Translations under genes and position numbers: made by a program
Shown here: one piece after another, positions 401 to 13,409 of the stretch
Layout: every line of letters starts with the position of its first letter
Numbering within the stretch: position 1 is the first letter of the stretch
Source of the DNA: a bacterium
GTDB taxonomy: Bacteria > Patescibacteriota > Patescibacteriia > UBA9570
Reading direction: 5' to 3'
Length of the DNA: 64,000 nucleotides
NCBI GenBank assembly: GCA_030698395.1
Contig: JAUYKW010000018.1
Location: 44,726 to 108,725, forward strand
The notes under the pieces: model-generated
Told to the model about the DNA's origin: nothing
Database searches by the model: none
Seen by the model: the letters and a program-made list of their open reading frames with translations, nothing else

Positions 401-1681
401 ATGACTAGCAAGGTAAAAAAACAATTAGCAACATTACCACAAAAGCCAGGAATTTATTTGTTTAAAAATTCTATTGGTAATGTACTTTATGTAGGTAAAG
501 CGAAGTCTTTAAGTAGCCGAGTTCGATCATACTTTAGACAGCATAATGATTTGAATGAAGCTAAACAAATTATGGTACGGCAAATTGTTGATGTAGATTG
601 GATAGAAACAAAAACTGAATCTGATGCCATAATTTTAGAAGATAAGTTGATCAAAGATTATCAACCTAGATTTAATGTATTAGCAAAGGATGATAAAAGT
701 TTTTTGTATATTCATATAACGGATGAGAAGTTTCCTCAGGTACTAGCAGTACGGAGACCAAATCTTCGTAAAGCTGGAATATTTTATGGACCATATCCAT
801 TTGCTCGTAGTATTAGAGAAGTTCTAAAATTATTACATAACATTTTTCCATATCGGACTTGTAAAAATTTACCAAAAAAGGCTTGTTTAGAATATTACAT
901 TTATAAATGTAAAGCACCGTGCATTAATAAGATTTCAGAATCAGATTATCAAGCATTGATATATGATGTGTTAGCTTTTTTTGAAGGTAGAAATACTTTA
1001 GAGCTAGAATCAAGATTGGAAGAAATGATGCAGGTAGCTTCTGAAGATAAAAAGTTCGAAGATGCAGCAAAGTATCGTGATCAGTTAAAAGCAATAAAAA
1101 AGCTGCGTTCATTTCAAAAAACTCCACGTGAGTATTTAACTGATTATTACCAATTTAAGGCTATCGATCCTGATTTAGGCCTTCAACAGCTACAGGATGC
1201 TCTGGTTTTGCCAGCTCAGCCAAAGAGGGTAGAAGTTTATGATATTTCAAATATCCAAGGAACATATGCGGTTGGATCGATGGTGGTGTTTATTGATGGA
1301 TTGCCAGCTAGGAGTGAATATCGGAGATTTAAAATTAAAACTGTCCAAGGTGCAGATGATTATAAAAGTTTGCAAGAAGTGGTTAGACGGCGATTAAAAA
1401 GAGATTGGCCAAAACCAGATTTAGCTATCATGGATGGAGGTAAGGGGCAATTAAATGCTGTAAAACATTTTTGGCAAGATCATGACGTATCAGTTGTTGC
1501 TTTAGCCAAGAAAAGAGAAGAGCTATTTCTACCTGATCAAGCGATACCAATTACAATGGAAGCTGGTAGTCAGGGATTATTTCTAATTCAAAGAATGCGT
1601 GATGAAGCGCATCGTTTTGCCATCACTTATTATCGTAAATTGCACTCTAAATCAATGCGAGCTAATACCACTAAAAGCTAG
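401..1681 (+). CDS. uvrC: Excinuclease ABC subunit C (UvrC), short form (426 aa) apparently lacking the C-terminal (HhH)2 domain
   Basis: GIY-YIG N-terminus (GIYLFKN..VLYVGKAKSLSSRVRSYF). UVR motif (FEDAAKYRDQLKAIKKL). RNase H-like endonuclease region (VYDISNIQG..MDGGKGQLN..DEAHRFA). SD AGAGGAG at 391-397. Confidence 0.85.
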   Translation: MTSKVKKQLATLPQKPGIYLFKNSIGNVLYVGKAKSLSSRVRSYFRQHNDLNEAKQIMVRQIVDVDWIETKTESDAIILEDKLIKDYQPRFNVLAKDDKSFLYIHITDEKFPQVLAVRRPNLRKAGIFYGPYPFARSIREVLKLLHNIFPYRTCKNLPKKACLEYYIYKCKAPCINKISESDYQALIYDVLAFFEGRNTLELESRLEEMMQVASEDKKFEDAAKYRDQLKAIKKLRSFQKTPREYLTDYYQFKAIDPDLGLQQLQDALVLPAQPKRVEVYDISNIQGTYAVGSMVVFIDGLPARSEYRRFKIKTVQGADDYKSLQEVVRRRLKRDWPKPDLAIMDGGKGQLNAVKHFWQDHDVSVVALAKKREELFLPDQAIPITMEAGSQGLFLIQRMRDEAHRFAITYYRKLHSKSMRANTTKS

Positions 1682-3044
1682 GGGGAGTAGCTGGTGGAGT
1701 ACCACTTGGTGTTGATGGAATTATTTCCGGAGAATTTGTTGGAGTAGGAGGAATTGGACCTGATGGGGGAATTCCCTGAGTAGGTGCTTGTGGTTGTTGT
1801 GGCAGTGTAGGTTCTAATATTTCAGGGGTAGTAGGAGGATTATCTTGAGTTGGTGGTATAGGTTGTTGAATTGTAGCTGTTTCATCAGCTAGAGTATTTG
1901 CAATCGATGGTTCAGCTTCGAAGGCTGGTGCCATTTCTAAGGAAGCTAAGTCGGTTGCATTAATACCGGTTTGGATTAGTTCAGCATCTGAAATATGAAT
2001 TGCATCTATACCAATTCCAATAACTATGCCATTTTTATCTTGAGAACGATATATTTTTGCATCCGAAGCTAACGAGGCGTTTAATTCTGGTTGTTCTAGA
2101 GTTTTTAATTTGTCTGTAATTGATGAGGGCTCAGTGGTGAGTGTAGATTTAACAGCTGGAGATTCAGTTTTTTGCGGTAGCATGTGCAAGTCTTCTGTTG
2201 TGATGTCAGCATCAGTTACTTCTGTCGGAGAAAAATGTACAGATCCAGTAGCATGTTCAATTAGTAATCCCATTTCGGGTGTGGCATATACTTGAGCACC
2301 GGAAACGACAGTGTTTGCAACTGCCGGATTAGTATCGGAGAATTTTTTATTAAGAATTTCTATAATTTGCTCTGGCGTTAATGACTCTCGCTCTTTCTCG
2401 AGTGGAGTAACAGGCGATTCGGGTGCTTCTTCAATTGGTGAAATAGCTGGTGTGTTCGAAGTTGCTGGAGGAATGGAACCAGATTTATCAATGGTAGGAG
2501 TTGGTTGTTCATCTGTTGAGTTGACTTCAACAGGATGAGGTTTAATAAATTCTAAATCTTTAAAGATGTCTTCACTTTTTTCTGGATCGGTTTTAATTTG
2601 TGTTCGAGCTTCTTGAATTTTCTTTATTTGGTTATTTAGTTTACCCTCATTACTTTCCATGAAGCCGGTTTGTTCAATGAGCTTCTTTAGTTTATCAATT
2701 AAGCCGGTTTGTTCAGAATTAATACTTTCTAATTCAGAGATTAGTTTTTCTTCTGCACTATCCAATTTAGCCAAATAATCGACAGTCGTATCGGATGGTA
2801 CATCTTGAAGGGGTATTACTTGTGGTTTTAGAGATTCTCCAGGATTTTCTACTGGTGTCGATGTTGTCATGGGTTCAGGAGATGTTGTATCAGATTCTGA
2901 AGTAGGTGTTACTGGATTAGTTGTAGCTGAAGCAGTATTCACAAAAGGAAGTGTGATAGCTGGTCCAGACGTTGGAGTAGTTGAATTATCGTTGGGTGTA
3001 CCCATTGGTTGAGGAGGTACTGGATTTGAGGTTGATTCATTCAT
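1671..3044 (-). CDS. Hypothetical Pro/Thr/Ser-rich disordered protein with a central coiled-coil segment
   Basis: ORF-track frame 1671..3083. The 3083 start is TTG, so I prefer ATG at 3044 (MNESTSNPVPP). Low-complexity P/T/S termini flank the heptad-like segment LDSAEEKLISELESINSEQTGLIDKLKKLIEQ. No TM segment or catalytic motif seen. Confidence 0.6.
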   Translation of the reverse strand: MNESTSNPVPPQPMGTPNDNSTTPTSGPAITLPFVNTASATTNPVTPTSESDTTSPEPMTTSTPVENPGESLKPQVIPLQDVPSDTTVDYLAKLDSAEEKLISELESINSEQTGLIDKLKKLIEQTGFMESNEGKLNNQIKKIQEARTQIKTDPEKSEDIFKDLEFIKPHPVEVNSTDEQPTPTIDKSGSIPPATSNTPAISPIEEAPESPVTPLEKERESLTPEQIIEILNKKFSDTNPAVANTVVSGAQVYATPEMGLLIEHATGSVHFSPTEVTDADITTEDLHMLPQKTESPAVKSTLTTEPSSITDKLKTLEQPELNASLASDAKIYRSQDKNGIVIGIGIDAIHISDAELIQTGINATDLASLEMAPAFEAEPSIANTLADETATIQQPIPPTQDNPPTTPEILEPTLPQQPQAPTQGIPPSGPIPPTPTNSPEIIPSTPSGTPPATPPSF

Positions 3045-3104
3045 AATTAATATAATAATAGCATTTTTTTTAAGAAAAATCAAGTTGAAATATTTTAGAA
3101 ATAC

Positions 3105-3169: not shown

Positions 3170-5656
3170 TTAAACTGTAGCATTTGCATCAGGATGTTTA
3201 AGAGTTGGCAGTTCAGCTGATATTCTATCAACATTCTTTTCAGCTTCAGCATCTCTTGAGGCCTGAGCTATATCTCCGATTTTTCCAAAAGACATATATT
3301 CAGTAGGAAGTTCATCGTTTGCTACTGATTGCAGACCCTCTAAGGCTGTTTGGATATTTAACTGACCTGCATCTGCTAATGCCTCGGATAGTTGTGGTAA
3401 ATTGATATATTCAACCCCTGCATAATTACCTGGTTCGCCAGATAATATGTAAACACCCTGAGCATTTTGTGCAGTTGTGCCTTCTGGTAATCGAATATCA
3501 ATTAATCTTCCTTGTGCTGGCAAATCTACAAGCATGCGACGCAGATTGTCATTACTAGTTGCGAACTTTTTAGCTAAAGCATTTTTAATTTCGCTTACAT
3601 TATGTTCTCTCGTTTTTACTGCTTCAGTTTTTTCCGTTCCAGCTTCTGCATACGCTTTTTCTTCTGCTGCTTCAATCTGTTCAGACATGCGGGAATACTT
3701 ATTGTCTACACTTGGTGTTTGAACTGTTTCATTTCTGGCCGCTATGGAATCTTGAACGGATTTTGGTAAAGGTATACCAGATAAAGTAGCTTCTAGTTCC
3801 CAGGCATTTTCCATATTAGCATTTGCTTCATTACTAGCTTTTGTGGCTATTGATATTTTTTTATCAAGCGTAGCTAAAGCTTTGCGTAGTGCTCTGCCTT
3901 TTAGCGTTTCTGATTTTTCTAAGTTTGCTCTTTCAACAATTAAGTTACTTTCTATTTGTGAAGCTTTAATAAATGTGTTGGCAGCTTCCATAGATGCTTG
4001 AGATGCTTGTTCTATTGCTGCATTATCGGCATCTTCATTTGTTCTTGATAGTGTTTCAACGAGTTCTTGAGAGCCAGCAACATTGGCTTCAGCTTCTTTA
4101 ATACCAGCCTGAGTATCACGACTAATTTTTTCAAATAACTTGGCTCTTCCTTTTTCATCTGTTTTTCCTGCAAGGAAACGTTGATTTACTTCCCCAATCT
4201 TATCTGATCGTGCATCAAGTAAAGTTTTTAACTTCGCTTGTGCTTGTTCTAAACTTTGTTGAGCAGGCTCTAGAGCAGCGGATTTTTCTGCAGGCGTCAT
4301 TTGTTCCATTGGACGCATTGGTGTAATCATATCTTTAGCCAAAGCAGGGCTGTTTATTGTTACATCATATACGCTTTTGTCTGTTGTGAATCTAAAATCT
4401 TGTTTTTGTCTTGGCGAAAGTTTCGATGCACCTAGTGCTGTTTGTTCATATTCATCACGGAGTGCTCTCTGTTCATGTATATCCGATGGTGTTAGAGGAT
4501 TCATTGCCTCTCCATATTTAACTGGAGCTAGACCTTCTCCTTGTTTAAAAAATTCTTGTTCAACATCGTCACCAGCAAGTTCGCTAATGGCTTTTTCTGT
4601 TTGTTTATCTTCTACTTTTTGAATTTCAACTCCAAAATCACCTAAGTTAATAACTAGGCCACGAGCTCCATCAATTCTGCCATCATATTCTTCATTTATT
4701 TTTGCAATTGCCCGTTTAATCTCAGCGTCATTTAGTTTATCTGTATCAATTTCTGCAATTGCGATTGCCTTAGCATCCATAATTTGTTTGAGTTCTTCTT
4801 GAGCATTAGCAAGAGCTTTGGTTTTTTCTGCAGGTGTCATTTCTGGTTTATTAAAGTCCATGCGAGTTCTTGCTCCAGTACCGGATTCACCAACTTTTAT
4901 ACTATACGGGCTAGCTTGGCTTGATGTTGCAGTCTCTGTTCGTTGTAACTTAATACCACCACTAGCTGTGCGCATATAGAATTCATCTGCCATGTCATTG
5001 ACAATACTGGTCATGCCTGAATCTTGCATATGAGACATCTTCCACATGCTTTGGAATAACTTATTTTGATGTTCTGGGTCAGTAGAGGTTGCAATAGCTT
5101 CTCTTAATTTTCCTACAGCTTCTTGAATACGTTGTAGTTTAGTTTCTTGTCTGGTAAATAAACCAACACGTTCTGCTAGGCGTGTTACTTGAGCTCTTAG
5201 TACACTACGTTGCTCATCCATGGCTTCGTGTCGATTGCTAACAATCGTTTCTAATATTTTTAAGCTGTTAACCATGTGCTCTGCGCTAAGTAATCCTTCT
5301 GGTTTTTCAGCTGTAGCTTCTGCATCTTCATTAGGCAAATCTGAATAATCAACATCACTCATAGGTGTTTGGTAATTTCTAGCTTCAGGAATTCTATTAT
5401 AAGTTACCACTCCTTGGTCTTCTGGTTCTCCAATGTGTTGATCTAAATCTAACATTATGTCATCACTTGGGTCGTGGGAAATGTTTGGTAGTTGAGTTCT
5501 ATCTATTGGTGTTGTGGGGGCATTGTTATCTATATTGTCATCACCTGTATCTTCAAAACGTTCTGCGCCAGATAAAGGTAAGCCAGCATTATTTTCTATT
5601 TTTTTGGCTGGTAGATCTCTTTTATTTATTGGGTCTGTTCTTTCTCTTGCAACCAT
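3170..5656 (-). CDS. Hypothetical 828-aa Glu/Ala/Lys-rich coiled-coil protein with internal repeats
   Basis: Long uninterrupted ORF with an acidic disordered N-terminus and extended heptad-like stretches. A repeated MTPAEK-x-ALxxAQ module occurs at aa 272-290 and 452-470. No enzymatic motif, TM segment or signal peptide recognised. Confidence 0.65.
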   Translation of the reverse strand: MVARERTDPINKRDLPAKKIENNAGLPLSGAERFEDTGDDNIDNNAPTTPIDRTQLPNISHDPSDDIMLDLDQHIGEPEDQGVVTYNRIPEARNYQTPMSDVDYSDLPNEDAEATAEKPEGLLSAEHMVNSLKILETIVSNRHEAMDEQRSVLRAQVTRLAERVGLFTRQETKLQRIQEAVGKLREAIATSTDPEHQNKLFQSMWKMSHMQDSGMTSIVNDMADEFYMRTASGGIKLQRTETATSSQASPYSIKVGESGTGARTRMDFNKPEMTPAEKTKALANAQEELKQIMDAKAIAIAEIDTDKLNDAEIKRAIAKINEEYDGRIDGARGLVINLGDFGVEIQKVEDKQTEKAISELAGDDVEQEFFKQGEGLAPVKYGEAMNPLTPSDIHEQRALRDEYEQTALGASKLSPRQKQDFRFTTDKSVYDVTINSPALAKDMITPMRPMEQMTPAEKSAALEPAQQSLEQAQAKLKTLLDARSDKIGEVNQRFLAGKTDEKGRAKLFEKISRDTQAGIKEAEANVAGSQELVETLSRTNEDADNAAIEQASQASMEAANTFIKASQIESNLIVERANLEKSETLKGRALRKALATLDKKISIATKASNEANANMENAWELEATLSGIPLPKSVQDSIAARNETVQTPSVDNKYSRMSEQIEAAEEKAYAEAGTEKTEAVKTREHNVSEIKNALAKKFATSNDNLRRMLVDLPAQGRLIDIRLPEGTTAQNAQGVYILSGEPGNYAGVEYINLPQLSEALADAGQLNIQTALEGLQSVANDELPTEYMSFGKIGDIAQASRDAEAEKNVDRISAELPTLKHPDANATV

Positions 5657-5714
5657 ATATTTGATAGTTAAAGAATAGTGATTTTATTTGAATTTTTTAT
5701 TTTTGATTAATATA

Positions 5715-5742
5715 AGTATAGCAGAAATTTGAATTTTGTCAA
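5715..5742 (-). promoter_or_regulatory. Sigma70-like promoter for the 828-aa gene
   Basis: Minus strand: TTGACA (5742-5737), 16-nt spacer, TATACT (5720-5715). It lies about 55-60 nt upstream of ATG 5656. Confidence 0.5.
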
Positions 5743-5835
5743 GTAAAATAAGGCTTTTTGTATTATTTTTTATGGATTTTAAATGCTTATTACTTATATC
5801 AATTATTAGTAACATATTTGTATGATGATTAGACC

Positions 5836-5864
5836 TTGACAAATTGTAATATATCGGTGATAAT
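5836..5864 (+). promoter_or_regulatory. Near-consensus sigma70 promoter at the left edge of the GC-rich island
   Basis: TTGACA (5836-5841), exactly 17 nt spacer, GATAAT (5859-5864). The context TTAGAC-N-TTGACAA matches the secG promoter context at 11255-11268 in 13 of 14 positions. Confidence 0.65.
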
Positions 5865-6018
5865 GTTCTGTCCTCTTCGTTATGGAGGGGTCTGGTTCTT
5901 ACGGCACTCTATGTCGTTGGCGCCACGCTCTTTTTTACTAGACCGGTTTAGGATAATGCCCTATTCCAAATCGTCGTGCTTTTTCGACAAATCCTTAACT
6001 CACCACAAGGGAGATAAC
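5865..6018 (+). promoter_or_regulatory. Long GC-rich 5' leader / possible cis-regulatory or small RNA element upstream of the island ORF
   Basis: About 150 nt lie between the -10 box and ATG 6019. Pairings seen: CCTC 5872-5875 with GAGG 5885-5888, GGTCT 5889-5893 with AGACC 5940-5944, and GTCG 5973-5976 with CGAC 5985-5988. Palindrome TGGCGCCA 5918-5925 is followed by T6 at 5931-5936. Confidence 0.4.
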
Positions 6019-6987
6019 ATGACTGCGCAAGTCATTCCTTTCCCTAGCGGTGGAAGCCGGTCAGGGAAACAAGATATCTATGCTGAGATTCGGCCAAGCC
6101 AATCTCGGCTACAACAACATCGTCAAACCACAATGCAGGTAATTACGGGGACTGAGTGGACGGAACAATACCTCCACCCCCAGAACGTACGCGTGGAGCT
6201 GCCCCAACGTGGGGATGCAGAGCTCTTCGTGACAGTACACGTTCACATCCCGGCAATTCGTGGCCGGCTCCAGATTGGAGCGCAGGCGCTTGAACCGGGT
6301 AGACGACCCAGTGGTTGGGTGATGGCACAGGTAGAGGTGAGCGATCTTCGGCACCACCTCGTGTATGGACCAAGATACAAGAAGGTTCAGTATACGGTGC
6401 GACATGCCTTGGATGGCACTCACATGACCTTCCGGGTCAAGGTGGATCAATTCCCCTTCGGTCAGGCACAGGTGGTGCTTTGGTGGGTAGGCAAGAACGC
6501 CAACACCGATGGCATTTTCGTGCAGGCCAGGGAGATACCAGCTCTGACCTTGTCGACGAACGACCCTACAAGAACGATCACGCCTACGGGAGCGGTCGAT
6601 CGAACGGGAAAGGTCGTCGATAGCAACGTTGTAGTCGAGACCCACAGGTACGCATCCGGGTTTTTAACCGACTTCATCATCAACCTCCCGCACATGGATG
6701 GACAACAACATCCTGGTGTACCGCGGGTTCTCCCACGGCTGGACAAGGTGAACGTGCAAAAGGTGAACGTGCAAGACGGCACGTTGACGGTGATTGACCA
6801 ACTCACTGGCTCTGCCAAGGTGTACGACCATATCGTCTTTACGTGCGAGCGTTCAGACGAGGCTACACACCTCCGGTTCAGAGTCGAGGGGATGGACGCA
6901 ATTCCTGTCGGGTCCGAAGAGCTGGTCCTAGAATGGAGATCGACGTCTCTGGGTGGTTACTACATCCAGGTGATCGTTGATCGCTGA
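6019..6987 (+). CDS. Orphan 322-aa protein of the GC-rich island; beta-rich, with two tandem homologous halves; function unknown
   Basis: ATG 6019 is preceded by SD AAGGGAGA (6007-6014). The frame stays open across the whole island. Other-frame ORFs here are GC-rich shadow ORFs. A repeated motif is visible: THMTFRVKVDQFPFGQAQVVLWWVG versus THLRFRVEGMDAIPVGSEELVLEWRS. Confidence 0.7.
   Translation: MTAQVIPFPSGGSRSGKQDIYAEIRPSQSRLQQHRQTTMQVITGTEWTEQYLHPQNVRVELPQRGDAELFVTVHVHIPAIRGRLQIGAQALEPGRRPSGWVMAQVEVSDLRHHLVYGPRYKKVQYTVRHALDGTHMTFRVKVDQFPFGQAQVVLWWVGKNANTDGIFVQAREIPALTLSTNDPTRTITPTGAVDRTGKVVDSNVVVETHRYASGFLTDFIINLPHMDGQQHPGVPRVLPRLDKVNVQKVNVQDGTLTVIDQLTGSAKVYDHIVFTCERSDEATHLRFRVEGMDAIPVGSEELVLEWRSTSLGGYYIQVIVDR
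6745..6774 (+). repeat. Perfect 15-bp tandem duplication inside the island ORF
   Basis: AAGGTGAACGTGCAA at 6745-6759 is repeated exactly at 6760-6774. It is in frame and gives KVNVQKVNVQ. Confidence 0.95.
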
Positions 6988-6999
6988 AATGTCCAGCAT

Positions 7000-7077
7000 G
7001 GAAGTGAGAGGTACTGCGTACAACGCAGGACTTGAAACGTCGTCGCACATCAACTGCTGACTACCTCTCCATCTTCC
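7000..7077 (+). other. Nested hairpin element immediately 3' of the island ORF
   Basis: Outer stem: GGAAG 7000-7004 with CTTCC 7073-7077, and GAGAGGTA 7006-7013 with TACCTCTC 7062-7069. Inner hairpin: CTGCGT 7014-7019, loop ACA, ACGCAG 7023-7028. No T-tract follows. Confidence 0.6.
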
Positions 7078-7166
7078 CCTTAATCTTATAAATTATGTTT
7101 TAGACTTTTTTGTTTGTAAGTAACACAAAAGTTGAAAGCAGAATTTGTTTCTTTTAGAATCGCTAA

Positions 7167-8093
7167 CTAAGTTATTTTTAAGAGCATTACGAATTGCTCG
7201 AATGCAGAAAAATATTTCTTCGGACGTAATGTTGTATTTTGGTATTCCAACATTACTTCTATCATATAATCATCATGTGTAAACAGAACTACTCGTGATG
7301 GAGAGCTGGTTGTTGTTTCTAACATTAATCCATTTCGTTGGGAGATTTCTGGAATTGATTCAAGAATGTTAGCATTAATATATTCTGGTCTGTATTTTTT
7401 AATCCAATCAAGTGTTGTAACAGTGTCATTTTCTGCTAGTGATATTGTAAGGCTAGCACTTTCTCGATCCTTTGTTTGTAATTTTATTTTGTCTGGACCG
7501 ACTGTATTTACTTCAAAATAGTCTTCATACTCAATCGATAACTCTCCAGCATTAGTATTGAATTGTCTTTCTTGCATTGCTACCGGGTGAGTTATTTTTC
7601 CGTAGGATATATTTTCATCATATGCAGACACCATATTAATATGAGAGCTATATACAACAACTAATACCATAAAACCAATTACAACTAACGCGCAAGCGCT
7701 AAAGAAATGTTCGCCAAAACTTAACTTATTAATTTTAGATTTTTCTTCAATAGTTATTACAGGTGTTTCATTGTCACTCTCAATAGATTCAATGGGTGCA
7801 ACAGAATCGATACTTTCTATCGGTGAAATTGGTTCTAATTCTAATTTTTCAACTATGGACTGTTTTTCTGGAACTGGTTTTGATTTCTTTTGTACTTTTT
7901 TCTTAGCAACAGGTTTCTTAACAACAGTCTTTTTTGTAGTAATTTTTTTAGGTGCTTTTTTAACGGCAATGCTTTTCTTCTTTTTATTAGCTGTAACCTT
8001 TGTTACTTTAGTCGGGGCTTTGGCTTTATTCTCTTTTGCCTTGCTGACTTTAGTATTTTTTGGTTTGCTTATTTTTTTTGTTATTTTTGCCAT
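7167..8093 (-). CDS. Hypothetical bitopic membrane protein with a polycationic Lys-rich N-terminal tail
   Basis: By my count, 31 of the first 77 residues are Lys (AKKxP/KKxV repeats, histone-H1-like). This is followed by a PIESI(D/E)S repeat, one TM helix (FFSACALVVIGFMVLVVVYSS) and a ~160-aa C-terminal domain. Confidence 0.6.
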   Translation of the reverse strand: MAKITKKISKPKNTKVSKAKENKAKAPTKVTKVTANKKKKSIAVKKAPKKITTKKTVVKKPVAKKKVQKKSKPVPEKQSIVEKLELEPISPIESIDSVAPIESIESDNETPVITIEEKSKINKLSFGEHFFSACALVVIGFMVLVVVYSSHINMVSAYDENISYGKITHPVAMQERQFNTNAGELSIEYEDYFEVNTVGPDKIKLQTKDRESASLTISLAENDTVTTLDWIKKYRPEYINANILESIPEISQRNGLMLETTTSSPSRVVLFTHDDYMIEVMLEYQNTTLRPKKYFSAFEQFVMLLKIT

Positions 8094-8138
8094 GGTTTAA
8101 TATTATATTCCTCCAAATAAAAATATATTATAGCGAAG

Positions 8139-10208
8139 CTACATTTTTTCTACAAGTTTTTCTGGAATATCTGCAATAAATCTAGAAGCACTTACAATTT
8201 TTGTAGTACCAAACACAGTTCGCTGATTAGCATAAATAAGATATGCTCGTTCACGGGCGCGGGTTAATGCCACATAGCATAGACGACGCTCTTCCTCCAT
8301 TTCTAGTGGTTGGAATAAACTTCTGGCATGTGGAAATAGCCCTTCTTCCATACCTGCAACGAATACGTTATTGAATTCTAAACCTTTAGCAGCGTGTACA
8401 GTCATCATAGTGACTGCATTGGTGCTTTCGTCAACATCATCTTGATCTGAAATGAGAGCAACTTCTTCTAAGAAAGAGTTGATGCCAGCTTGACCAGGTA
8501 AATGATCGAATTTTTTGGTAACTGATTTTAATTCTTCAATATTTTCTATGCGACGTTGATCTTCTGATAGCTTTGGTGAGAATTGATCAGTGTAGCCGGT
8601 TTTGTCTGCAATCATAGTTAGTAAATCAGACGGAGTTTTTTCTGGAGCTGCCGCAATAATTTCTTGCATGGTTTTTTGAAAATTTAAAAAAGCTAGCCTT
8701 TGCTTTTCTCTTAAGGGTGGTAATTTGGTTTCAGATAATTCAACAAAGGTTGCTTCATTATCTCTGCAGGCTTGTTCTATTTTTAGCCAGCTATTTCTGC
8801 CTAATGATCTGGCAGGTATATTATAAATTCGTTCTAAACTTACCCAGTCAGCCGGATTAGCTACTACTTTCATATAAGCGATGAAATCCTTAATTTCTTT
8901 GCGCTCGTAAAATTTAATACCACCGATTAAACGATAAGGGATATTGTATTTCATGAAAGTTTCTTCTAGAGCACGTGATTGAGCATTGGTTCTATATAAA
9001 ATCACATACTCAGCAAGGTTGATATCTCGTTTTTGCCTTTTAATAACTTCTTCTAGAGCTAGATCCACTTTGTAATCTTTGAAAGTTTGACTTTTCATAA
9101 TTTTATCCAAAATGGACTCATCGGCTTCTGCTATTTGAATAGGGGTATATGAAATATCGTCATTGTCTTTTGGTTCGTTATTGTCCGAAAAATCAAATAT
9201 CTCTCTGATAATGAATTCTCCTTCGAGTTGTTCGTTTTCTACCTCTTTTACGACAATTTTATGTCCCCTGTCATTATCCGTCCAAAGAACCTTTTCCTTT
9301 TGAGAGGTATTATATTTAATAACTTCGTTGGCTGCTTCTAAAATACGTTTGGTGGATCGATAATTTTGTTCTAGTAGCACAACAACTGCATCTGGGTAAT
9401 CATCTTCGAAGTCTAGAATATTTTGTAAATTAGCTCCTCGCCATGAGTAGATGGACTGAAAGTCATCTCCTACTACACAGATATTATGATGCTTATCAGC
9501 TAATTGGTGGACTAATGTATATTGAGCATGATTAGTATCTTGATACTCATCAACCAAGATGTATTTAAATGCTGCTTGGTATTTTTTTAATACTTCTGGA
9601 TGTTCCTGAAAAAGTTTTACTGTTAATTGAATCAAATCATCAAAATCAAGTGCATTATTTCGTTGTAATTCCCCTTGATATTTACTATAAACATGAGCAG
9701 CAGTTTTTTCGATAGTTTCACTTGCCTCAGCTTCGTATGCACTAACATCCTTTAAATCATTTTTTGCACTCGATATCATGTATTTAATTATTTTAGGTGC
9801 GATTACTTTAGTATCGTATCCTAAATCTTTCATACATTTTTTAATCAAGGAATCACTATCCGATGCATCGTAGATGACATAATTAGTATCGTATCCTAAG
9901 ATTTCAATTTCTCGTCTTAAAATTTGTACACAAATTGAATGGAATGTACCTACTACCGGTAATTTTTTTACTTTGCCTTTAAGTAACTTTTGTAAGCGAT
10001 CTTTAATTTCTCCAGCAGCTTTGTTTGTGAATGTTACTGCTAAAATATTCCATGGCTTAACATCTTCCGTTGCAATAATGTAAGCAATCCGATGAATTAA
10101 GGTTTTGGTTTTTCCAGAACCAGCTCCAGCTAAAATTAAAAGGGGTCCATTAGTTTGTTGGACCGCTTTGCGTTGTCTATCGTTTAGAGGGGCTAGTAAT
10201 ATATGCAT
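8139..10208 (-). CDS. pcrA: ATP-dependent DNA helicase PcrA/UvrD (SF1)
   Basis: Motifs LAGAGSGKT, VDEYQDTN, QNYRST and VHAAKGLEF. The track start at 10247 is TTG. ATG at 10208 gives the typical N-terminus MHILLAPLNDRQRKAV. Confidence 0.9.
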   Translation of the reverse strand: MHILLAPLNDRQRKAVQQTNGPLLILAGAGSGKTKTLIHRIAYIIATEDVKPWNILAVTFTNKAAGEIKDRLQKLLKGKVKKLPVVGTFHSICVQILRREIEILGYDTNYVIYDASDSDSLIKKCMKDLGYDTKVIAPKIIKYMISSAKNDLKDVSAYEAEASETIEKTAAHVYSKYQGELQRNNALDFDDLIQLTVKLFQEHPEVLKKYQAAFKYILVDEYQDTNHAQYTLVHQLADKHHNICVVGDDFQSIYSWRGANLQNILDFEDDYPDAVVVLLEQNYRSTKRILEAANEVIKYNTSQKEKVLWTDNDRGHKIVVKEVENEQLEGEFIIREIFDFSDNNEPKDNDDISYTPIQIAEADESILDKIMKSQTFKDYKVDLALEEVIKRQKRDINLAEYVILYRTNAQSRALEETFMKYNIPYRLIGGIKFYERKEIKDFIAYMKVVANPADWVSLERIYNIPARSLGRNSWLKIEQACRDNEATFVELSETKLPPLREKQRLAFLNFQKTMQEIIAAAPEKTPSDLLTMIADKTGYTDQFSPKLSEDQRRIENIEELKSVTKKFDHLPGQAGINSFLEEVALISDQDDVDESTNAVTMMTVHAAKGLEFNNVFVAGMEEGLFPHARSLFQPLEMEEERRLCYVALTRARERAYLIYANQRTVFGTTKIVSASRFIADIPEKLVEKM

Positions 10209-10305: not shown

Positions 10306-11223
10306 ATGCAAGACTTTATAATAAAAACTTCAACCGGAGACGAAATTGAGGTTTATGCTGAACAGTTAGTTAAAAAAAGCAATCAAGGAACAATCGTTGC
10401 CGGTAAACATTTAGGAACCAATGAAGATGTGGTAGTAAAAATATCTCATCCTTTTTCTTTGATTAATGATACAGATCATACAGCTGGTGATAAGACTCAT
10501 GTATTAAGAGAATTAGAGATTTTACCACAGCTGTCTGGAGTTGATGGTATTCCAAAATTCATCGCATCTCATAAGCTGGTTGAGCCAGGAAAAAATGAAC
10601 GATATATTTTTGCAATGTCAAAAGTTAATGGGATTGATTTTGAAGAACGGCGGAAGCAAGATACGGAGCGAAGATTAACATGTGCGGAGGCGACAGATTT
10701 ATTAAAGCAAGTTGGATTAATTTTACAGCAAGCACATGAGCGGGATATTATTCATCGTGATTTAAAATTGAGTAACTTTATGATTTCACCGGATGGTAAG
10801 ATTTCGATAGTGGATTGGGGTACAGCTAAACATATTAGTCAGCCAAAAGATTCTTTTAGCGGTAGTACGCCAGATCATACTGTTATAGGAACGGTGCAAT
10901 TTGTTTCTTACGAACAGATAACTGGTCAGAAGCTAGATCAACGAACAGACATTTATTCACTTGGAGCAGTTACAGCATTGTTACGTTATGGGCCAAAAAT
11001 TAGTCAACGTTACGTGATTGATGAACAAGGTACGGTAACACAGCGCGAGAAAGGAAAGATAGCGAAAGCAGTTGCCGCTCGCGAAACTTTAAAATATGAA
11101 CTGTTTCCTAAGCCTGAAGATGACTGTGAACGTACTTTGCAGGCTGTACTTAAAAAAATGACAGATCCGGATAAGGAGAAGCGTTTTCAGTCAATGAGAG
11201 CAATGATTGAGGCAATTTCTTGA
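10306..11223 (+). CDS. Stand-alone Hanks-type Ser/Thr protein kinase domain (atypical)
   Basis: Catalytic loop HRDLKLSNF, DWG in place of DFG, VVVKI lysine, and a degenerate Gly-rich loop. No TM, PASTA or other sensor domain. Confidence 0.75.
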   Translation: MQDFIIKTSTGDEIEVYAEQLVKKSNQGTIVAGKHLGTNEDVVVKISHPFSLINDTDHTAGDKTHVLRELEILPQLSGVDGIPKFIASHKLVEPGKNERYIFAMSKVNGIDFEERRKQDTERRLTCAEATDLLKQVGLILQQAHERDIIHRDLKLSNFMISPDGKISIVDWGTAKHISQPKDSFSGSTPDHTVIGTVQFVSYEQITGQKLDQRTDIYSLGAVTALLRYGPKISQRYVIDEQGTVTQREKGKIAKAVAARETLKYELFPKPEDDCERTLQAVLKKMTDPDKEKRFQSMRAMIEAIS

Positions 11224-11261
11224 TATATGTTGACGATGATAAAAGTGCATAATTTTAGACG

Positions 11262-11290
11262 TTGACAATATATAACTAATATTGTAGTAT
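11262..11290 (+). promoter_or_regulatory. Sigma70-like promoter upstream of secG
   Basis: TTGACA (11262-11267), 17-nt spacer ending in TG, TAGTAT (11285-11290). ATG at 11306. Confidence 0.55.
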
Positions 11291-11305
11291 CACTACGTTC
11301 AATTT

Positions 11306-11530
11306 ATGGATCTTAATATCGTAATTTTAATAGCACAGATCATAGTTTCCATTTTAATGGTTGTTGTGATATTGATGCAACAAAAAGGTGCAGGCTTGGG
11401 CTCGGCTTTTGGTGGTGGTGATGCAGTGTACACAACTCGGAGAGGACCAGAAAAGTTTATTTTCAATTCAACTATAATTTTAGCAGTATTATTCCTTGGT
11501 CTAAGTATAGTAGCCTTTTTTCTGCAGTAA
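11306..11530 (+). CDS. secG: Preprotein translocase subunit SecG
   Basis: 74 aa with two TM helices flanking the Gly-rich loop MQQKGAGLGSAFGGG, which is typical of SecG. Confidence 0.8.
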   Translation: MDLNIVILIAQIIVSILMVVVILMQQKGAGLGSAFGGGDAVYTTRRGPEKFIFNSTIILAVLFLGLSIVAFFLQ

Positions 11531-11538
11531 AGTAATTT

Positions 11539-13308: not shown

Positions 13309-13409
13309 TAAATATAAAATATAACTTTGATAGCAGAGGGACTTCGCTAATGTCTCTGCTGTCGTAATTAATAAAGTACTAACAAATAATTGTTAGTTTA
13401 AGAATAAAT

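What the first reader, a model, noticed from the sequence alone, without database searches (positions are those of the whole stretch)
5836..7080. Sharp-edged ~1.2 kb GC-rich island with its own promoter and one orphan gene, between two AT-rich minus-strand genes
The base composition changes abruptly here. I count 38/60 G+C in 6241-6300, against 13/60 in 5701-5760 and 19/60 in a typical housekeeping stretch (14041-14100).

The sequence is AT-rich up to about 5864 and again from 7081. Nothing else in the 64 kb looks like this.

The block carries one long plus-strand ORF (6019-6987), antiparallel to both neighbours. The ORF track shows four long overlapping shadow ORFs here, as expected for foreign GC-rich coding DNA.

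I see no integrase, transposase, tRNA or obvious target-site duplication, and I recognise no catalytic or family motif in the protein.

The left edge carries the best promoter match in the window. Its TTAGAC-N-TTGACAA context matches the secG promoter in 13 of 14 positions. That argues for a resident, expressed insertion rather than an assembly chimera.

One hypothesis is a gene captured from a high-GC donor, for example a host or partner organism if this is an episymbiont.
Basis: partly seen in the sequence, partly recalled or inferred. Interest (0 to 1): 0.85.

Follow-up and report, generated by a model that had tools for sequence, protein, structure and literature searches.

The report
Conserved GC-rich, heavily folded orphan gene
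The GC-rich block is real, but it is not a freshly captured foreign gene: it is a gene specific to one bacterial lineage that related genomes keep at the same spot, always far more GC-rich than the genome around it, apparently because its messenger RNA is under selection to fold very tightly.

Summary
The GC island runs 5868-7079 at 54% GC, against 34.6% for the rest of the window. It carries one ORF on the + strand, 6019-6987, of 322 aa with GC3 0.62; the 49 other ORFs have GC3 0.24±0.03.

Seven of the eight related lineages sampled (Kerfeldbacteria-like Patescibacteria, PcrA 52-69% identical) carry an antiparallel GC island in the same slot: PcrA, Lys-rich membrane protein, [island], coiled-coil protein, UvrC/UvrA. 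Each island is 13-19 GC points above its genome.

These islands share four things:
- a consensus promoter that ends where the GC rise begins
- a hairpin at the 5' end of the transcript
- an invariant leader motif, GCCCUAUUCC, in six of the eight lineages that carry an island (this genome included)
- a structured 3' UTR that starts right after the stop codon

The one lineage with an empty slot sits inside the clade, so it lost the island.

The protein has no Pfam, PDB, PHROG or PADLOC match, evolves fast, and is predicted to be all beta-strand at low confidence. In this genome it is an old tandem duplication of the single domain seen in relatives.

All eight coding regions fold far better than versions with shuffled synonymous codons (z -3.8 to -7.3). 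Controls, including GC-matched ones, give -2.0 to +2.2.

Best reading: a resident gene whose GC richness is maintained for mRNA structure. Its function is unknown.

The parts
5868..7079 (+). GC-rich island, which equals the predicted transcript body (54% GC against 34.6% background)
   Evidence: Change points and z = 8.3; composition profiles; only outlier run in the window.
5836..5864 (+). Sigma-70-type promoter TTGACA-17-GATAAT. It is AT-rich, host-style, and ends 3 nt before the GC rise.
   Evidence: 11/12 match. The same TTGACA(A/T)(A/T)TT-17-TAnnnT layout sits in front of every related island. 13/14 identity with the secG promoter context.
5869..6018 (+). Structured 5' leader of about 150 nt
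   Evidence: Leaders of all related islands begin with a hairpin at the predicted +1, followed by a second hairpin. W's leader on its own is not significantly structured (z = -1.3).
5872..5890 (+). 5'-terminal hairpin P1 (CCUC...GAGG)
   Evidence: Found by the terminator-like scan. Counterparts GUCCCC..GGGGA and GUUCCGGA..UCCGGAAC sit at the same place in relatives, with different sequences keeping the same pairing.
5958..5967 (+). Invariant leader motif GCCCTATTCC, 51 nt upstream of the ATG
   Evidence: Unique exact match in the window. CCCTATTCC occurs once in each of L046, L047, L050, L052, L053 and L054, always in the island leader on the gene strand.
6009..6013 (+). Shine-Dalgarno GGGAG, 5 nt before the ATG
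   Evidence: Read directly from the sequence. GGAG/GAGG lies at the same place in relatives.
6019..6987 (+). Coding sequence: 322-aa protein, predicted all-beta at low confidence, with no signal peptide or hydrophobic N-terminal stretch. NCBI calls only the C-terminal 221 aa (MDP3970694.1), starting at 6322.
   Evidence: ORF; coding-type GC1/2/3; ORF length P < 1/3000; synonymous-shuffle folding z = -5.05; NCBI record; AlphaFold2 predicts strands only but at pLDDT 36-44.
6172..6528 (+). Domain 1 (aa 52-170). This is the part that aligns with the single-domain relatives.
   Evidence: BLASTP of W aa 86-169 against L052 aa 68-145, E = 5e-4; Smith-Waterman z = 5.9; hhalign P = 0.0035.
6625..6984 (+). 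Domain 2 (aa 203-322), an old tandem duplicate of domain 1
   Evidence: Smith-Waterman score 73 against a null of 29±5, z about 8-10. 25% identity over about 120 aa. No similarity is left at the DNA level.
7000..7077 (+). 3' UTR four-way junction: outer stem 7000-7004/7073-7077, closing stem 7006-7013/7062-7069, and three hairpins. It ends in a C/U-rich tail.
   Evidence: z = -3.5 to -3.65, with 0 of 200 shuffles as stable. L047, L050 and L052 have the same design (closing stem plus three hairpins, right after the stop). L048, L053 and L054 have a simpler GAGG..CCUC stem. In L050 against L052 this is the best-conserved piece, 92% identical.
5715..5742 (-). Divergent promoter of the neighbouring 828-aa gene (context only). 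It shares the CTTGACAAA -35 context.
   Evidence: TTGACA-16-TATACT with TG, 11/12; inverted repeat I12.

Best explanation
**What it is.** This is a resident transcription unit, most likely inherited vertically, that is specific to a Kerfeldbacteria-like clade of Patescibacteria. It is not a recent insertion.

**Anatomy.** A consensus sigma-70 promoter fires at the left edge of the GC rise. The RNA opens with a terminal hairpin, then a leader carrying the conserved element GCCCUAUUCC and a good ribosome-binding site. It encodes a fast-evolving protein, probably cytoplasmic and all-beta. Relatives have one domain of about 140-195 aa; this genome has two domains from an old tandem duplication. 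The RNA ends in a stable multi-branched 3' structure directly after the stop codon.

**Why it is GC-rich.** The GC richness is a maintained property of the transcript. Synonymous codons are arranged so that the whole mRNA, coding part included, forms much more secondary structure than its composition or its protein sequence requires.

**Inferred mechanism.**
- The 5' hairpin and the 3' junction would shield the RNA ends from exonucleases. RNase J is encoded in this window.
- The GC-rich, base-paired body would offer few single-stranded AU-rich sites for endonucleases.
- The result would be a long-lived and/or translationally gated mRNA.

**What is shown and what is inferred.** Shown: the anatomy, its conservation, the excess of predicted folding, the domain duplication, and the loss in one lineage. 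Inferred: mRNA stability or translational gating as the purpose. The protein's function is unknown.

**Confidence by step.** About 0.9 that it is a resident, clade-conserved gene rather than a recent insertion; about 0.6 that the GC richness is maintained for RNA structure; about 0.35 that the purpose is mRNA stability or gating. The overall figure of 0.6 refers to the second step.
For: **Same slot in relatives.** The order PcrA, Lys-rich membrane protein, antiparallel GC island, coiled-coil protein, UvrC(-), UvrA holds in L047, L048/L049, L050, L052, L053, L054 and L056.

**Shared promoter, leader and 3' UTR.**
- Promoter, 5'-terminal hairpin and leader layout are shared.
- CCCTATTCC occurs once per locus, always in the island leader.
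- The 3' UTR design is shared except in L056.
- In L050 against L052 the 3' UTR is 92% identical, with one compensatory GGUC/GACC to GGCC/GGCC change.

**It is protein-coding.**
- GC1/2/3 is coding-type in all members.
- ORF length: P < 1/3000 in W and .009-.11 in the others.
- In a DNA-only alignment, indels are 3+3 nt in the coding part but 11, 3, 2, 12, 1, 1 and 5 nt in the UTRs.
- dN/dS is about 0.44.

**Protein links between lineages.** Smith-Waterman z is 5.9 for W-L052, 10.3 for L052-L048, 6.5 for L052-L053, 7.1 for L052-L054 and 22 for L048-L054. BLASTP gives E = 5e-4 and hhalign P = 0.0035. A family HMM ranks the W ORF first of 287 six-frame ORFs, with two domains matched.

**Excess folding.**
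- Whole transcripts score z -4.6 to -7.6 against dinucleotide shuffles; seven neighbouring genes score -1.6 to +2.5.
- Coding regions against synonymous-codon shuffles score z -3.8 to -7.3, with 0 of 80 shuffles as stable in all eight. Six local controls score -0.56 to +0.22 and ten GC-matched controls -1.97 to +2.18.
- The sense strand is more stable than the antisense strand in 8 of 8.

**Residence over a long time.**
- Flanking genes have saturated synonymous sites, pS .69-.79.
- Island GC tracks host GC with a constant offset of +13 to +19 points.
- The empty lineage L055 is nested next to L048 and L054, with PcrA 76% identical.

**Background from the literature.** 5'-terminal stem-loops stabilise bacterial mRNAs (review PMC3997798 and the work it cites). 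More structure in a coding region lengthens functional mRNA half-life (PMC6883848).
Against: - There are no expression data, so the transcription start and the RNA ends are predictions.
- The structure evidence is thermodynamic. With eight very divergent sequences there is almost no formal covariation: only one compensatory pair was seen.
- Protein homology between W and the family is weak. The proteins of L047 and L056 are not significantly similar to the others. These two are tied in by position, orientation, composition, promoter, 5' hairpin and excess folding; L047 also has the leader motif and the 3' junction.
- W's 5' leader alone is not significantly structured (z = -1.3).
- Reduced synonymous divergence is seen in only one pair (L050-L052, pS .43) and not in L048-L054 (pS .64). 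It could reflect a more recent exchange.
- Other unrelated small GC-rich genes sit near PcrA in relatives (L048 12484-12852 and L055 7602-7919). Foreign GC-rich DNA therefore does land in this neighbourhood.
- Only nine lineages were sampled.
- AlphaFold2 models are unusable (pLDDT 36 and 44).
Confidence: 0.6

Rival explanations
1. The slot is re-seeded again and again from a GC-rich mobile pool. The unit would live on an unknown phage or plasmid of about 55-60% GC and replace the resident copy by homologous or site-specific recombination. It would then look GC-rich everywhere because it never stays long enough to drift towards the host's composition.
For: - GC1/2/3 of the genes looks like the equilibrium of a genome of about 55% GC.
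- L050-L052 have lower synonymous divergence than their flanks.
- Other small GC-rich genes occur near PcrA in relatives.
- Presence and absence both occur: L055 is empty.
Against: - No integrase, transposase, tRNA, terminal repeats or att-like duplication.
- No homologue in phage or plasmid records, viral contigs, or the large protein sets.
- The two closest host pairs have the two most similar islands.
- Island GC follows host GC.
- The promoter is host-style.
- This reading does not explain the folding excess over synonymous shuffles and GC-matched genes.
Confidence: 0.12
2. One reading: a gene recently captured from a high-GC donor and inserted between two native genes of this genome.
For: - Extreme compositional contrast with sharp edges.
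- Amino-acid usage typical of GC-rich organisms: K 2.8% against 7.8% in the other ORFs, and R 7.7% against 3.9%.
- No homologues found.
Against: - Equivalent islands with the same leader motif, promoter layout and 3' UTR design sit in the same slot in relatives down to 52% PcrA identity.
- The empty site is a derived loss.
- The internal domain duplication is old: 25% amino-acid identity and no DNA similarity.
- No mobility marks.
Confidence: 0.04
3. A local GC-biased mutational or repair process, such as biased gene conversion at a recombination hotspot or a targeted mutator, keeps this fast-evolving gene GC-rich. RNA structure would be a by-product.
For: - The gene is the fastest-evolving protein gene of its neighbourhood: pN .45 in L048-L054 against .05-.28 in flanking genes.
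- Differences between L050 and L052 are spread almost evenly over the three codon positions (.28/.22/.33).
Against: - The edges coincide with the transcript (promoter -10 to the 3' structure), not with a recombination tract.
- A composition-only process does not explain why native codon order folds 23-44 kcal/mol better than synonymous shuffles.
- It also does not explain why GC-matched ordinary genes lack this signal.
- No template-like repeat of the kind used by diversity-generating retroelements was found in the window.
Confidence: 0.08
4. It is a large structured non-coding RNA gene, and the ORF is incidental. GC-rich islands in AT-rich genomes are classically RNA genes.
For: - The island equals the predicted transcript.
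- Whole-transcript folding z is -4.6 to -7.6.
- The most conserved piece in the closest pair is non-coding: the 3' UTR at 92%.
- Purifying selection on the protein is only modest.
Against: - A sense-strand ORF spans the island in all eight lineages. W has 323 codons, P < 1/3000.
- Three-base periodicity in GC.
- Indels in the ORF preserve the frame; indels in the UTRs do not.
- A Shine-Dalgarno sequence precedes each start.
- There is protein-level similarity, and an internal duplication visible only at the protein level.
- No Rfam family matches.

A second, non-coding role of the RNA is not excluded.
Confidence: 0.05
5. Assembly chimera: a fragment of a co-assembled GC-rich organism was spliced into the contig.
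For: Only the compositional jump.
Against: - An independent Logan assembly gives identical sequence across both junctions.
- Equivalent islands lie at the same place in seven other lineages from different samples and assemblers.
- The host-type promoter abuts the island.
Confidence: 0.01

Closest known systems
Horizontally acquired genomic islet carrying an orphan gene (a compositional outlier gene)
   Same: A sharp GC and codon-usage contrast with the genome, a single orphan ORF, and amino-acid usage typical of GC-rich organisms.
   Different: It is present at the same slot across a clade whose flanking genes have saturated synonymous sites. Promoter, leader and 3' UTR are shared across the islands. 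There are no mobility genes, tRNA or repeats. Its GC tracks host GC. The empty site is a secondary loss.
Long-lived bacterial mRNAs protected by 5'-terminal stem-loops and stable 3' structures (ompA, papA and aprE leaders; review PMC3997798), and highly structured coding regions that lengthen functional half-life (PMC6883848)
   Same: A hairpin at the predicted +1, a stable structure at the 3' end, and extra base pairing throughout the coding region.
   Different: In those examples the stabilising elements are confined to the UTRs and the genes are not compositional islands. Here the whole coding region is 13-19 GC points above the genome, and the folding excess is conserved across a gene family. 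No half-life has been measured here.
GC-rich structured RNA genes in AT-rich genomes (rRNA, tRNA, RNase P RNA and large non-coding RNAs such as OLE, GOLLD and ROOL). That a GC contrast can be used to find RNA genes is from my own knowledge.
   Same: The GC island coincides with a transcript, and predicted folding is strong.
   Different: A conserved, frame-preserved ORF with a ribosome-binding site. No Rfam match at gathering or at permissive thresholds.
Single-stranded RNA phage or satellite-virus coat-protein genes with structure throughout the RNA (resemblance only; my own knowledge)
   Same: About 0.6-1.2 kb of RNA, one ORF for a 140-195 aa beta-rich protein, pervasive structure that includes the coding part, and a multi-branched 3' end.
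   Different: It is encoded in chromosomal DNA behind a host promoter. No sequence or structural homology could be shown. There is no replicase, and no evidence that the RNA is packaged.
Type I toxin mRNAs (hok-like): stable, highly folded mRNAs
   Same: A compact, strongly folded and presumably stable mRNA with its own promoter.
   Different: The product is 140-322 aa and not a small hydrophobic peptide. No antisense RNA was identified, and no conserved pairing between the 5' and 3' ends was found.

Membership tests
Recently acquired genomic island (horizontal transfer) | Composition or codon usage deviates from the genome | tested here: met
   54% against 34.6% GC; GC3 .62 against .24±.03.
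Recently acquired genomic island (horizontal transfer) | Absent from the same site in related genomes (empty site is ancestral) | tested here: not met
   Present in 7 of 8 related lineages. The one empty lineage (L055) is nested beside lineages that carry it.
Recently acquired genomic island (horizontal transfer) | Mobility marks: integrase or transposase, tRNA target, flanking direct repeats | tested here: not met
   No tRNA. No terminal direct or inverted repeats. The neighbours that gave a family match are housekeeping genes; the others gave none.
Recently acquired genomic island (horizontal transfer) | Identifiable donor or homologues elsewhere | tested here: not met
   Only self among 5.8 billion clusters and 1.84 billion representatives. 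Nothing in phage or plasmid records, viral contigs or metagenome contigs.
Integron gene cassette | Promoterless ORF followed by an attC site (RYYYAAC ... GTTRRRY) next to an integron integrase | tested here: not met
   The unit has its own promoter. By eye, no GTTRRRY core at the right edge (sequence). No integrase among the neighbours.
Known structured RNA families (Rfam 15, including RNase P RNA, tmRNA, 6S, OLE, GOLLD, ROOL, HEARO, group I and II introns, riboswitches) | Covariance-model match | tested here: not met
   No hit at gathering scores in the window or five related loci. None on the islands at E up to 5-10.
tRNA or tmRNA gene (for the cloverleaf-like 3' element) | ARAGORN-detectable cloverleaf with an anticodon arm and T loop | tested here: not met
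   No tRNA or tmRNA in the window or loci. The hairpin loops are 3, 7 and 7 nt, with no T-loop sequence.
Protein-coding gene (as opposed to a non-coding RNA) | Conserved ORF, three-base periodicity, frame-preserving indels, ribosome-binding site | tested here: met
Any described protein family (Pfam, NCBIfam, PHROGs, PADLOC, PDB sequences) | Significant profile match | tested here: not met
   Best hits have E of 0.076 or worse.
Target gene of a diversity-generating retroelement | A template repeat of about 100-150 bp matching a variable region, and a reverse transcriptase nearby | tested here: inconclusive
   No repeat of any island segment elsewhere in the 64 kb. The window's ORFs were not all screened for a reverse transcriptase, and the rest of the genome is not available.
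Type I toxin-antitoxin | Small (under about 60 aa) hydrophobic toxin plus an overlapping antisense RNA | tested here: not met
   The product is 322 aa here (140-195 aa in relatives), with no hydrophobic N-terminal stretch seen by eye. Antisense RNA was not tested.
Stabilised or 'superfolded' mRNA (works-like claim) | More secondary structure than composition and protein sequence require, with protective 5' and 3' terminal structures | tested here: met
Stabilised or 'superfolded' mRNA (works-like claim) | Long measured half-life or high protein output | not testable with these tools
   Needs RNA-seq, rifampicin chase or reporter assays.

The most novel reading that the evidence does not exclude
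The transcript is more than a messenger. The unit would be a self-contained RNA-protein module in which a compact, nuclease-resistant RNA of 0.6-1.2 kb is bound or packaged by the small beta-sandwich protein it encodes. That would make it a domesticated capsid-like or satellite-like element, or a dual-function RNA, kept in the chromosome of these ultra-small bacteria, which are presumed to live as symbionts. This would explain three things together: the structure throughout the RNA, the multi-branched 3' end, and the fast-evolving protein with a mildly basic N-terminus.
Probability: 0.08. Interest if true: 0.9.

Novelty: new variant of a known kind. Interest (0 to 1): 0.6.

Why it matters
Compositional islands are routinely read as recent horizontal transfer. 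Here an island 13-19 GC points above its genome persists at one chromosomal slot across a clade whose flanking genes have saturated synonymous sites. Its synonymous codons are arranged to build RNA structure.

If this holds, it is a clear natural bacterial case where selection on mRNA folding, not ancestry, sets the base composition of a whole gene. It would be a caution for island-based detection of horizontal transfer in Patescibacteria and other AT-rich genomes.

It also defines three new things that can be tested:
- a new protein family
- a new 5' leader element (GCCCUAUUCC)
- a new 3' four-way-junction element

It gives a concrete way to ask how organisms with very few ribosomes and an RNase J-based decay system keep particular messages alive.

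Tried and rejected
**Homology searches that found nothing**
- Pfam, PHROGs, NCBIfam, PADLOC and PDB sequence searches on the protein, and on a six-member family alignment where the tool allowed it.
- Two whole-database protein searches returned only the protein itself.
- tblastn against phage and plasmid records, and scans of viral and metagenome contigs, found nothing.

**Structure prediction**
- AlphaFold2 on the full protein gave pLDDT 36, and on the two-domain alignment pLDDT 44. Both are too poor, so no fold search was run.

**Finding relatives**
- The genome-contig scan with PcrA returned only 36-48% relatives and no close genome.
- Relatives were reached instead through PcrA homologues and exact-protein look-ups.
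- One look-up (L057) ended right after PcrA and gave no information.

**RNA searches**
- A specific DNA pattern combining promoter, 5' hairpin and leader motif gave 13 metagenome hits and 1 viral hit. All were chance matches in unrelated contexts.
- Rfam in permissive mode gave nothing on the islands.

**Ideas rejected**
- A rod-like fold or a conserved pairing between the 5' and 3' ends: the predicted pairs are mostly local, and the long-range closures are weak and not conserved.
- My first by-eye impression of family-wide protein homology was not borne out by most pairwise tests with W. It is now supported only by W-L052, the profile comparison and the HMM ranking.
- A MAFFT alignment of the 3' elements is not structure-aware and has only three independent sequences. 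No covariance model was built.
- Integron cassette, tRNA-like gene, type I toxin and diversity-generating retroelement target were considered; see the membership tests.
Full report

Yes. It is 54.1% GC against 34.6% for the rest of the window. No other 1.2-kb stretch of the 64 kb exceeds 40.5% (z = 8.3).

The + strand ORF 6019-6987 is antiparallel to both neighbours. Its GC1/2/3 is .635/.412/.616. The other 49 long ORFs have GC3 of .241±.026, so it lies at z = 14. Its protein is poor in K, N and I and rich in R, G and V. Four shadow ORFs of at least 60 aa overlap it.

A stop-free run of 323 codons was never reached in 3000 shuffles of the island. There is no tRNA, no Rfam hit and no terminal repeats.

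The promoter TTGACA-17-GATAAT lies at 5836-5864. It ties with five other sites at 11/12, so it is not the single best in the window.

The promoter ends 3 nt before the GC change point, so the island begins at about the predicted transcription start. GGGAG sits 5 nt before ATG 6019.

**2. It is not a chimera.**

An independent Logan assembly of run SRR13727534 has a 14.3-kb contig that carries the island and both junctions at 100% identity. The NCBI record (MDP3970694.1, locus tag Q8P90_03265, contig 112,874 nt) annotates only the C-terminal 221 aa.

**3. The protein is an orphan by search, but so are its neighbours.**

- Pfam, PHROGs, NCBIfam and PADLOC give nothing for the protein.
- Searches of 5.8 billion clusters and of 1.84 billion representatives return only the protein itself.
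- Phage records, plasmid records, viral contigs and metagenome contigs give nothing.
- The adjacent, compositionally native 308-aa Lys-rich membrane protein also finds only itself. Its syntenic counterparts in relatives are only 19-28% identical to it.

This lineage is thinly sampled and its clade-specific proteins evolve fast.

The island protein contains an internal duplication: aa 52-170 against aa 203-322. The Smith-Waterman score is 73 against a null of 29±5, with 25% identity. No similarity remains at the DNA level, so the duplication is old. AlphaFold2 gives only low-confidence all-beta models, pLDDT 36 and 44, so no fold search was attempted.

**4. Relatives change the interpretation.**

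The PcrA helicase two genes away identifies the host as a Kerfeldbacteria-like member of the Patescibacteria. Its nearest relatives are 64-69% identical. I fetched the contigs that encode those PcrA proteins.

The gene order is conserved: secG ... PcrA, a Lys-rich membrane protein of about 300 aa, X, coiled-coil protein(s), UvrC(-), UvrA. In seven of the eight other lineages, X is an antiparallel GC-rich island of 550-800 nt. It is 54-62% GC against 39-45% for the locus. The coordinates are:

| Locus | Island |
|---|---|
| L047 | ~7540-8327 |
| L048 | ~14020-14599 (L049 is the same) |
| L050 | ~13230-13965 |
| L052 | ~6450-7182 |
| L053 | ~10940-11696 |
| L054 | ~5935-6520 |
| L056 | ~11255-11960 (PcrA only 53% identical to W) |

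The eighth lineage, L055, has an empty slot: the Lys-rich gene is followed after 10 nt by the coiled-coil gene. L055's PcrA is 76% identical to those of L048 and L054, which both carry the island. To every other lineage it is 67% identical or less. The empty site is therefore a secondary loss.

**5. The islands are one family of transcription units.**

*Promoter and leader.*
- Each island has a consensus promoter, TTGACA(A/T)(A/T)TT-17-TAnnnT.
- At the predicted +1 comes a terminal hairpin. Different sequences keep the same pairing: GUCCCC...GGGGA, GUUCCGGA...UCCGGAAC, or CCUC...GAGG in W.
- A second hairpin follows.
- In W, L047, L050, L052, L053 and L054 the invariant GCCCUAUUCC lies 40-80 nt before a Shine-Dalgarno sequence and the start codon.
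- CCCTATTCC occurs exactly once in each of those loci, always there and on the gene strand.
- L048 has the variant UUCCAUUCCCC. L056 lacks the motif but keeps the promoter and a CCCCGCAAGGGG hairpin.

*3' UTR.*
- Directly after the stop codon, W, L047, L050 and L052 fold into a four-way junction. A closing stem beginning GAGG/GGGG encloses three hairpins and is followed by a C/U-rich tail.
- L048, L053 and L054 have a simpler GAGG...CCUC stem.
- L056 has an ordinary terminator.
- Folding z for these eight 3' UTRs runs from -0.95 to -4.5; six of the seven structured elements score -2.0 or lower (L048 is -0.95), and L056's terminator scores -2.4.

*Proteins.* The links are real but thin.
- Smith-Waterman z: L050-L052 96, L048-L054 22, L052-L048 10.3, L052-L054 7.1, L052-L053 6.5, W-L052 5.9.
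- BLASTP of W aa 86-169 against L052 aa 68-145 gives E = 5e-4.
- The profile-profile comparison gives P = 0.0035.
- An HMM built from six relatives ranks the W ORF first of 287 six-frame ORFs and matches it in two places.
- The proteins of L047 and L056 are not significantly similar to the rest. They are tied in by position, orientation, composition, promoter, 5' hairpin and excess folding; L047 also has the leader motif and the 3' junction.

So W carries a two-domain, tandemly duplicated member of a family that has one domain elsewhere. That accounts for its 1.2 kb against about 0.6-0.8 kb in relatives.

**6. Is it really coding?**

Yes, by four lines of evidence.
- All members show coding-type GC periodicity.
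- A sense ORF spans each island, with P from .009 to .11 per locus and below 1/3000 in W.
- In a DNA-only alignment of L050 and L052, the coding part has two indels of 3 nt each. The UTRs have indels of 11, 3, 2, 12, 1, 1 and 5 nt.
- dN/dS is about 0.44-0.48.

It is the fastest-evolving protein gene of the neighbourhood. In L048-L054 its pN is .45, against .05-.28 for flanking genes, while the hosts' PcrA is 89% identical.

**7. Why is it GC-rich?**

Between these genomes the synonymous sites of flanking genes are saturated (pS .69-.79). A passively carried foreign gene would long since have drifted to the host's composition. Instead, every island sits 13-19.5 GC points above its host, and island GC follows host GC (Spearman 0.79, p = 0.02). 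Something is actively maintaining the GC content.

The transcripts also fold much better than chance.

| Test | Islands | Controls |
|---|---|---|
| Whole transcript against dinucleotide shuffles | z -4.6 (W), -6.3, -5.2, -6.6, -5.8, -7.6, -4.8, -5.9 | seven neighbouring genes, -1.6 to +2.5 |
| Coding region against synonymous-codon shuffles (protein and codon usage fixed) | z -3.8 to -7.3; 23-44 kcal/mol lost; 0 of 80 shuffles as stable in all eight | six local genes, -0.56 to +0.22 |
| Same test on GC-matched genes (50-63% GC) from unrelated bacteria | not applicable | ten genes, -1.97 to +2.18 |

In W, 150-nt windows are almost all negative across the island. The peaks are at the start codon region (-3.9) and at the 3' element (-5.0). 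The background is -0.09±1.08.

The sense strand is more stable than the antisense strand in 8 of 8. This favours an RNA-level constraint on the mRNA, although strand composition could contribute. The predicted pairs are mostly local, and there is no conserved closure between the 5' and 3' ends.

In the closest pair, the first 75 nt of the 3' UTR are 92% identical. The coding part is 72% identical and the 5' UTR 61%. One compensatory GGUC/GACC to GGCC/GGCC change is visible.

**8. Most likely mechanism.**

Shown: a conserved unit made of a strong promoter, a 5'-terminal hairpin, a conserved leader element, a ribosome-binding site, a structured GC-rich coding region and a stable 3' junction.

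Inferred: this is an armoured mRNA.
- 5'-terminal stem-loops protect bacterial mRNAs from decay that starts at the 5' end (review PMC3997798 and the ompA, papA and aprE work it cites). RNase J is encoded at 13410-15218 of this window.
- Stable 3' structures block 3' exonucleases (my own knowledge).
- A more structured coding region lengthens functional half-life (PMC6883848, shown in eukaryotic cells).
- The leader element, and the Shine-Dalgarno pairings I read in the leader sequences of some members (L053, L054), suggest that translation may also be gated.

The protein is probably cytoplasmic and all-beta. It has no signal peptide or hydrophobic N-terminal stretch by eye, and the fold prediction is of low confidence. 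Its function is unknown. Its speed of change would fit a conflict or interaction interface.

My confidence in each step is:
- about 0.9 that this is a resident, clade-conserved gene and not a recent insertion
- about 0.6 that the GC richness is maintained for RNA structure
- about 0.35 that the purpose is mRNA stability or translational gating

**9. Rivals.**

- Recurrent re-seeding from a GC-rich mobile pool, 0.12. In its favour: the gene's composition looks like a 55% GC equilibrium, one pair has low synonymous divergence, and other small GC-rich genes lie near PcrA in relatives. Those are L048 12484-12852, a 122-aa ORF with a Tat/lipobox-like N-terminus at 65-68% GC, and L055 7602-7919, an RHH-like gene.
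- A local GC-biased mutational or conversion process, 0.08.
- A non-coding RNA with an incidental ORF, 0.05.
- Recent capture from a high-GC donor, 0.04.
- Assembly chimera, 0.01.

None of the composition-only models explains the excess folding over synonymous shuffles and GC-matched genes.

**10. Comparison with known things, and novelty.**

It works like a stabilised or 'superfolded' mRNA, and it looks like a horizontally acquired islet, but it fails the defining tests for a recent island. It matches no Rfam, Pfam, NCBIfam, PHROG, PADLOC or PDB family.

I know of no described bacterial gene family that stays a compositional island across a clade because of structure throughout its mRNA, and one literature search turned up nothing relevant. 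I therefore rate it a new variant of a known kind.

The most novel reading not excluded is an RNA-protein module in which the protein binds or packages its own compact RNA, like a domesticated satellite or capsid gene. I give that probability about 0.08.

**11. Limits.**

- There are no expression data.
- The structure evidence is thermodynamic, with almost no covariation.
- Only nine lineages were sampled.
- Protein links to W are weak.
- The AlphaFold models are unusable.
- The rest of the genome was not examined.

Noticed in passing
window 6019-6987 (NCBI start at 6322): The public annotation (MDP3970694.1, Q8P90_03265) calls only the last 221 aa. ATG 6019 has GGGAG 5 nt upstream and sits at the family-typical distance from the leader motif, so the deposited gene model is probably truncated. 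The Logan gene call of 374 aa probably starts too early.
   Followed up: partly
L048 12200-12900 (same as L049 5800-6450): These relatives have a second island of 65-68% GC between PcrA and the Lys-rich gene. Its + strand 122-aa ORF (12484-12852) starts MDPTRRDLFALGGVTVVALLLPGC, which looks like a twin-arginine signal plus lipobox. It is unrelated to the family studied and has no PADLOC hit.
   Followed up: partly
L055 7602-7919 (-): In the lineage that lost the island, a 58% GC gene of 105 aa lies between a RelB/YafQ pair and PcrA. By eye it looks like a ribbon-helix-helix protein (no family search supports this). It is another small GC-rich gene in this neighbourhood.
   Followed up: partly
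window 1671-3083 and 3170-5656 (-); L047 8472-10810; L050 14073-15305: The genes downstream of the slot encode Pro/Thr-rich coiled-coil proteins with a shared C-terminal motif (...SDAELIQ...). They number one or two per genome and range from about 250 to 830 aa. They have no Pfam match and, like the Lys-rich membrane protein, appear specific to this clade and fast-evolving.
   Followed up: partly
PcrA homologues P0021, P0025, P0087, P0090, P0091, P0092 and P0103: Several close PcrA relatives are 900-1100 aa long and carry Hint/intein Pfam domains. Inteins therefore interrupt PcrA in some members of this clade, but not in this window.
   Followed up: no
window 5829-5842, 11255-11268 and 5735-5743: The island promoter, the secG promoter and the divergent promoter of the 828-aa gene share an extended -35 context, (TTAGACS)TTGACAA. 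This may be the signature of strong promoters in this organism. The TTAGAC part is not conserved in the relatives' island promoters.
   Followed up: partly
window 401-1681 (+); L053 14510-17344: UvrC is short here, 426 aa against about 600 usually, and the same holds in most relatives. In L053, UvrA is split into two ORFs of 400 and 539 aa, which could be a frameshift or an assembly error.
   Followed up: no
L047 3897-4485; L055 6974-7509: Toxin-antitoxin pairs (PhdYeFM/PemK and RelB/YafQ) are inserted at variable places just upstream of PcrA in relatives. The region around PcrA is a variable spot for small accessory genes.
   Followed up: no
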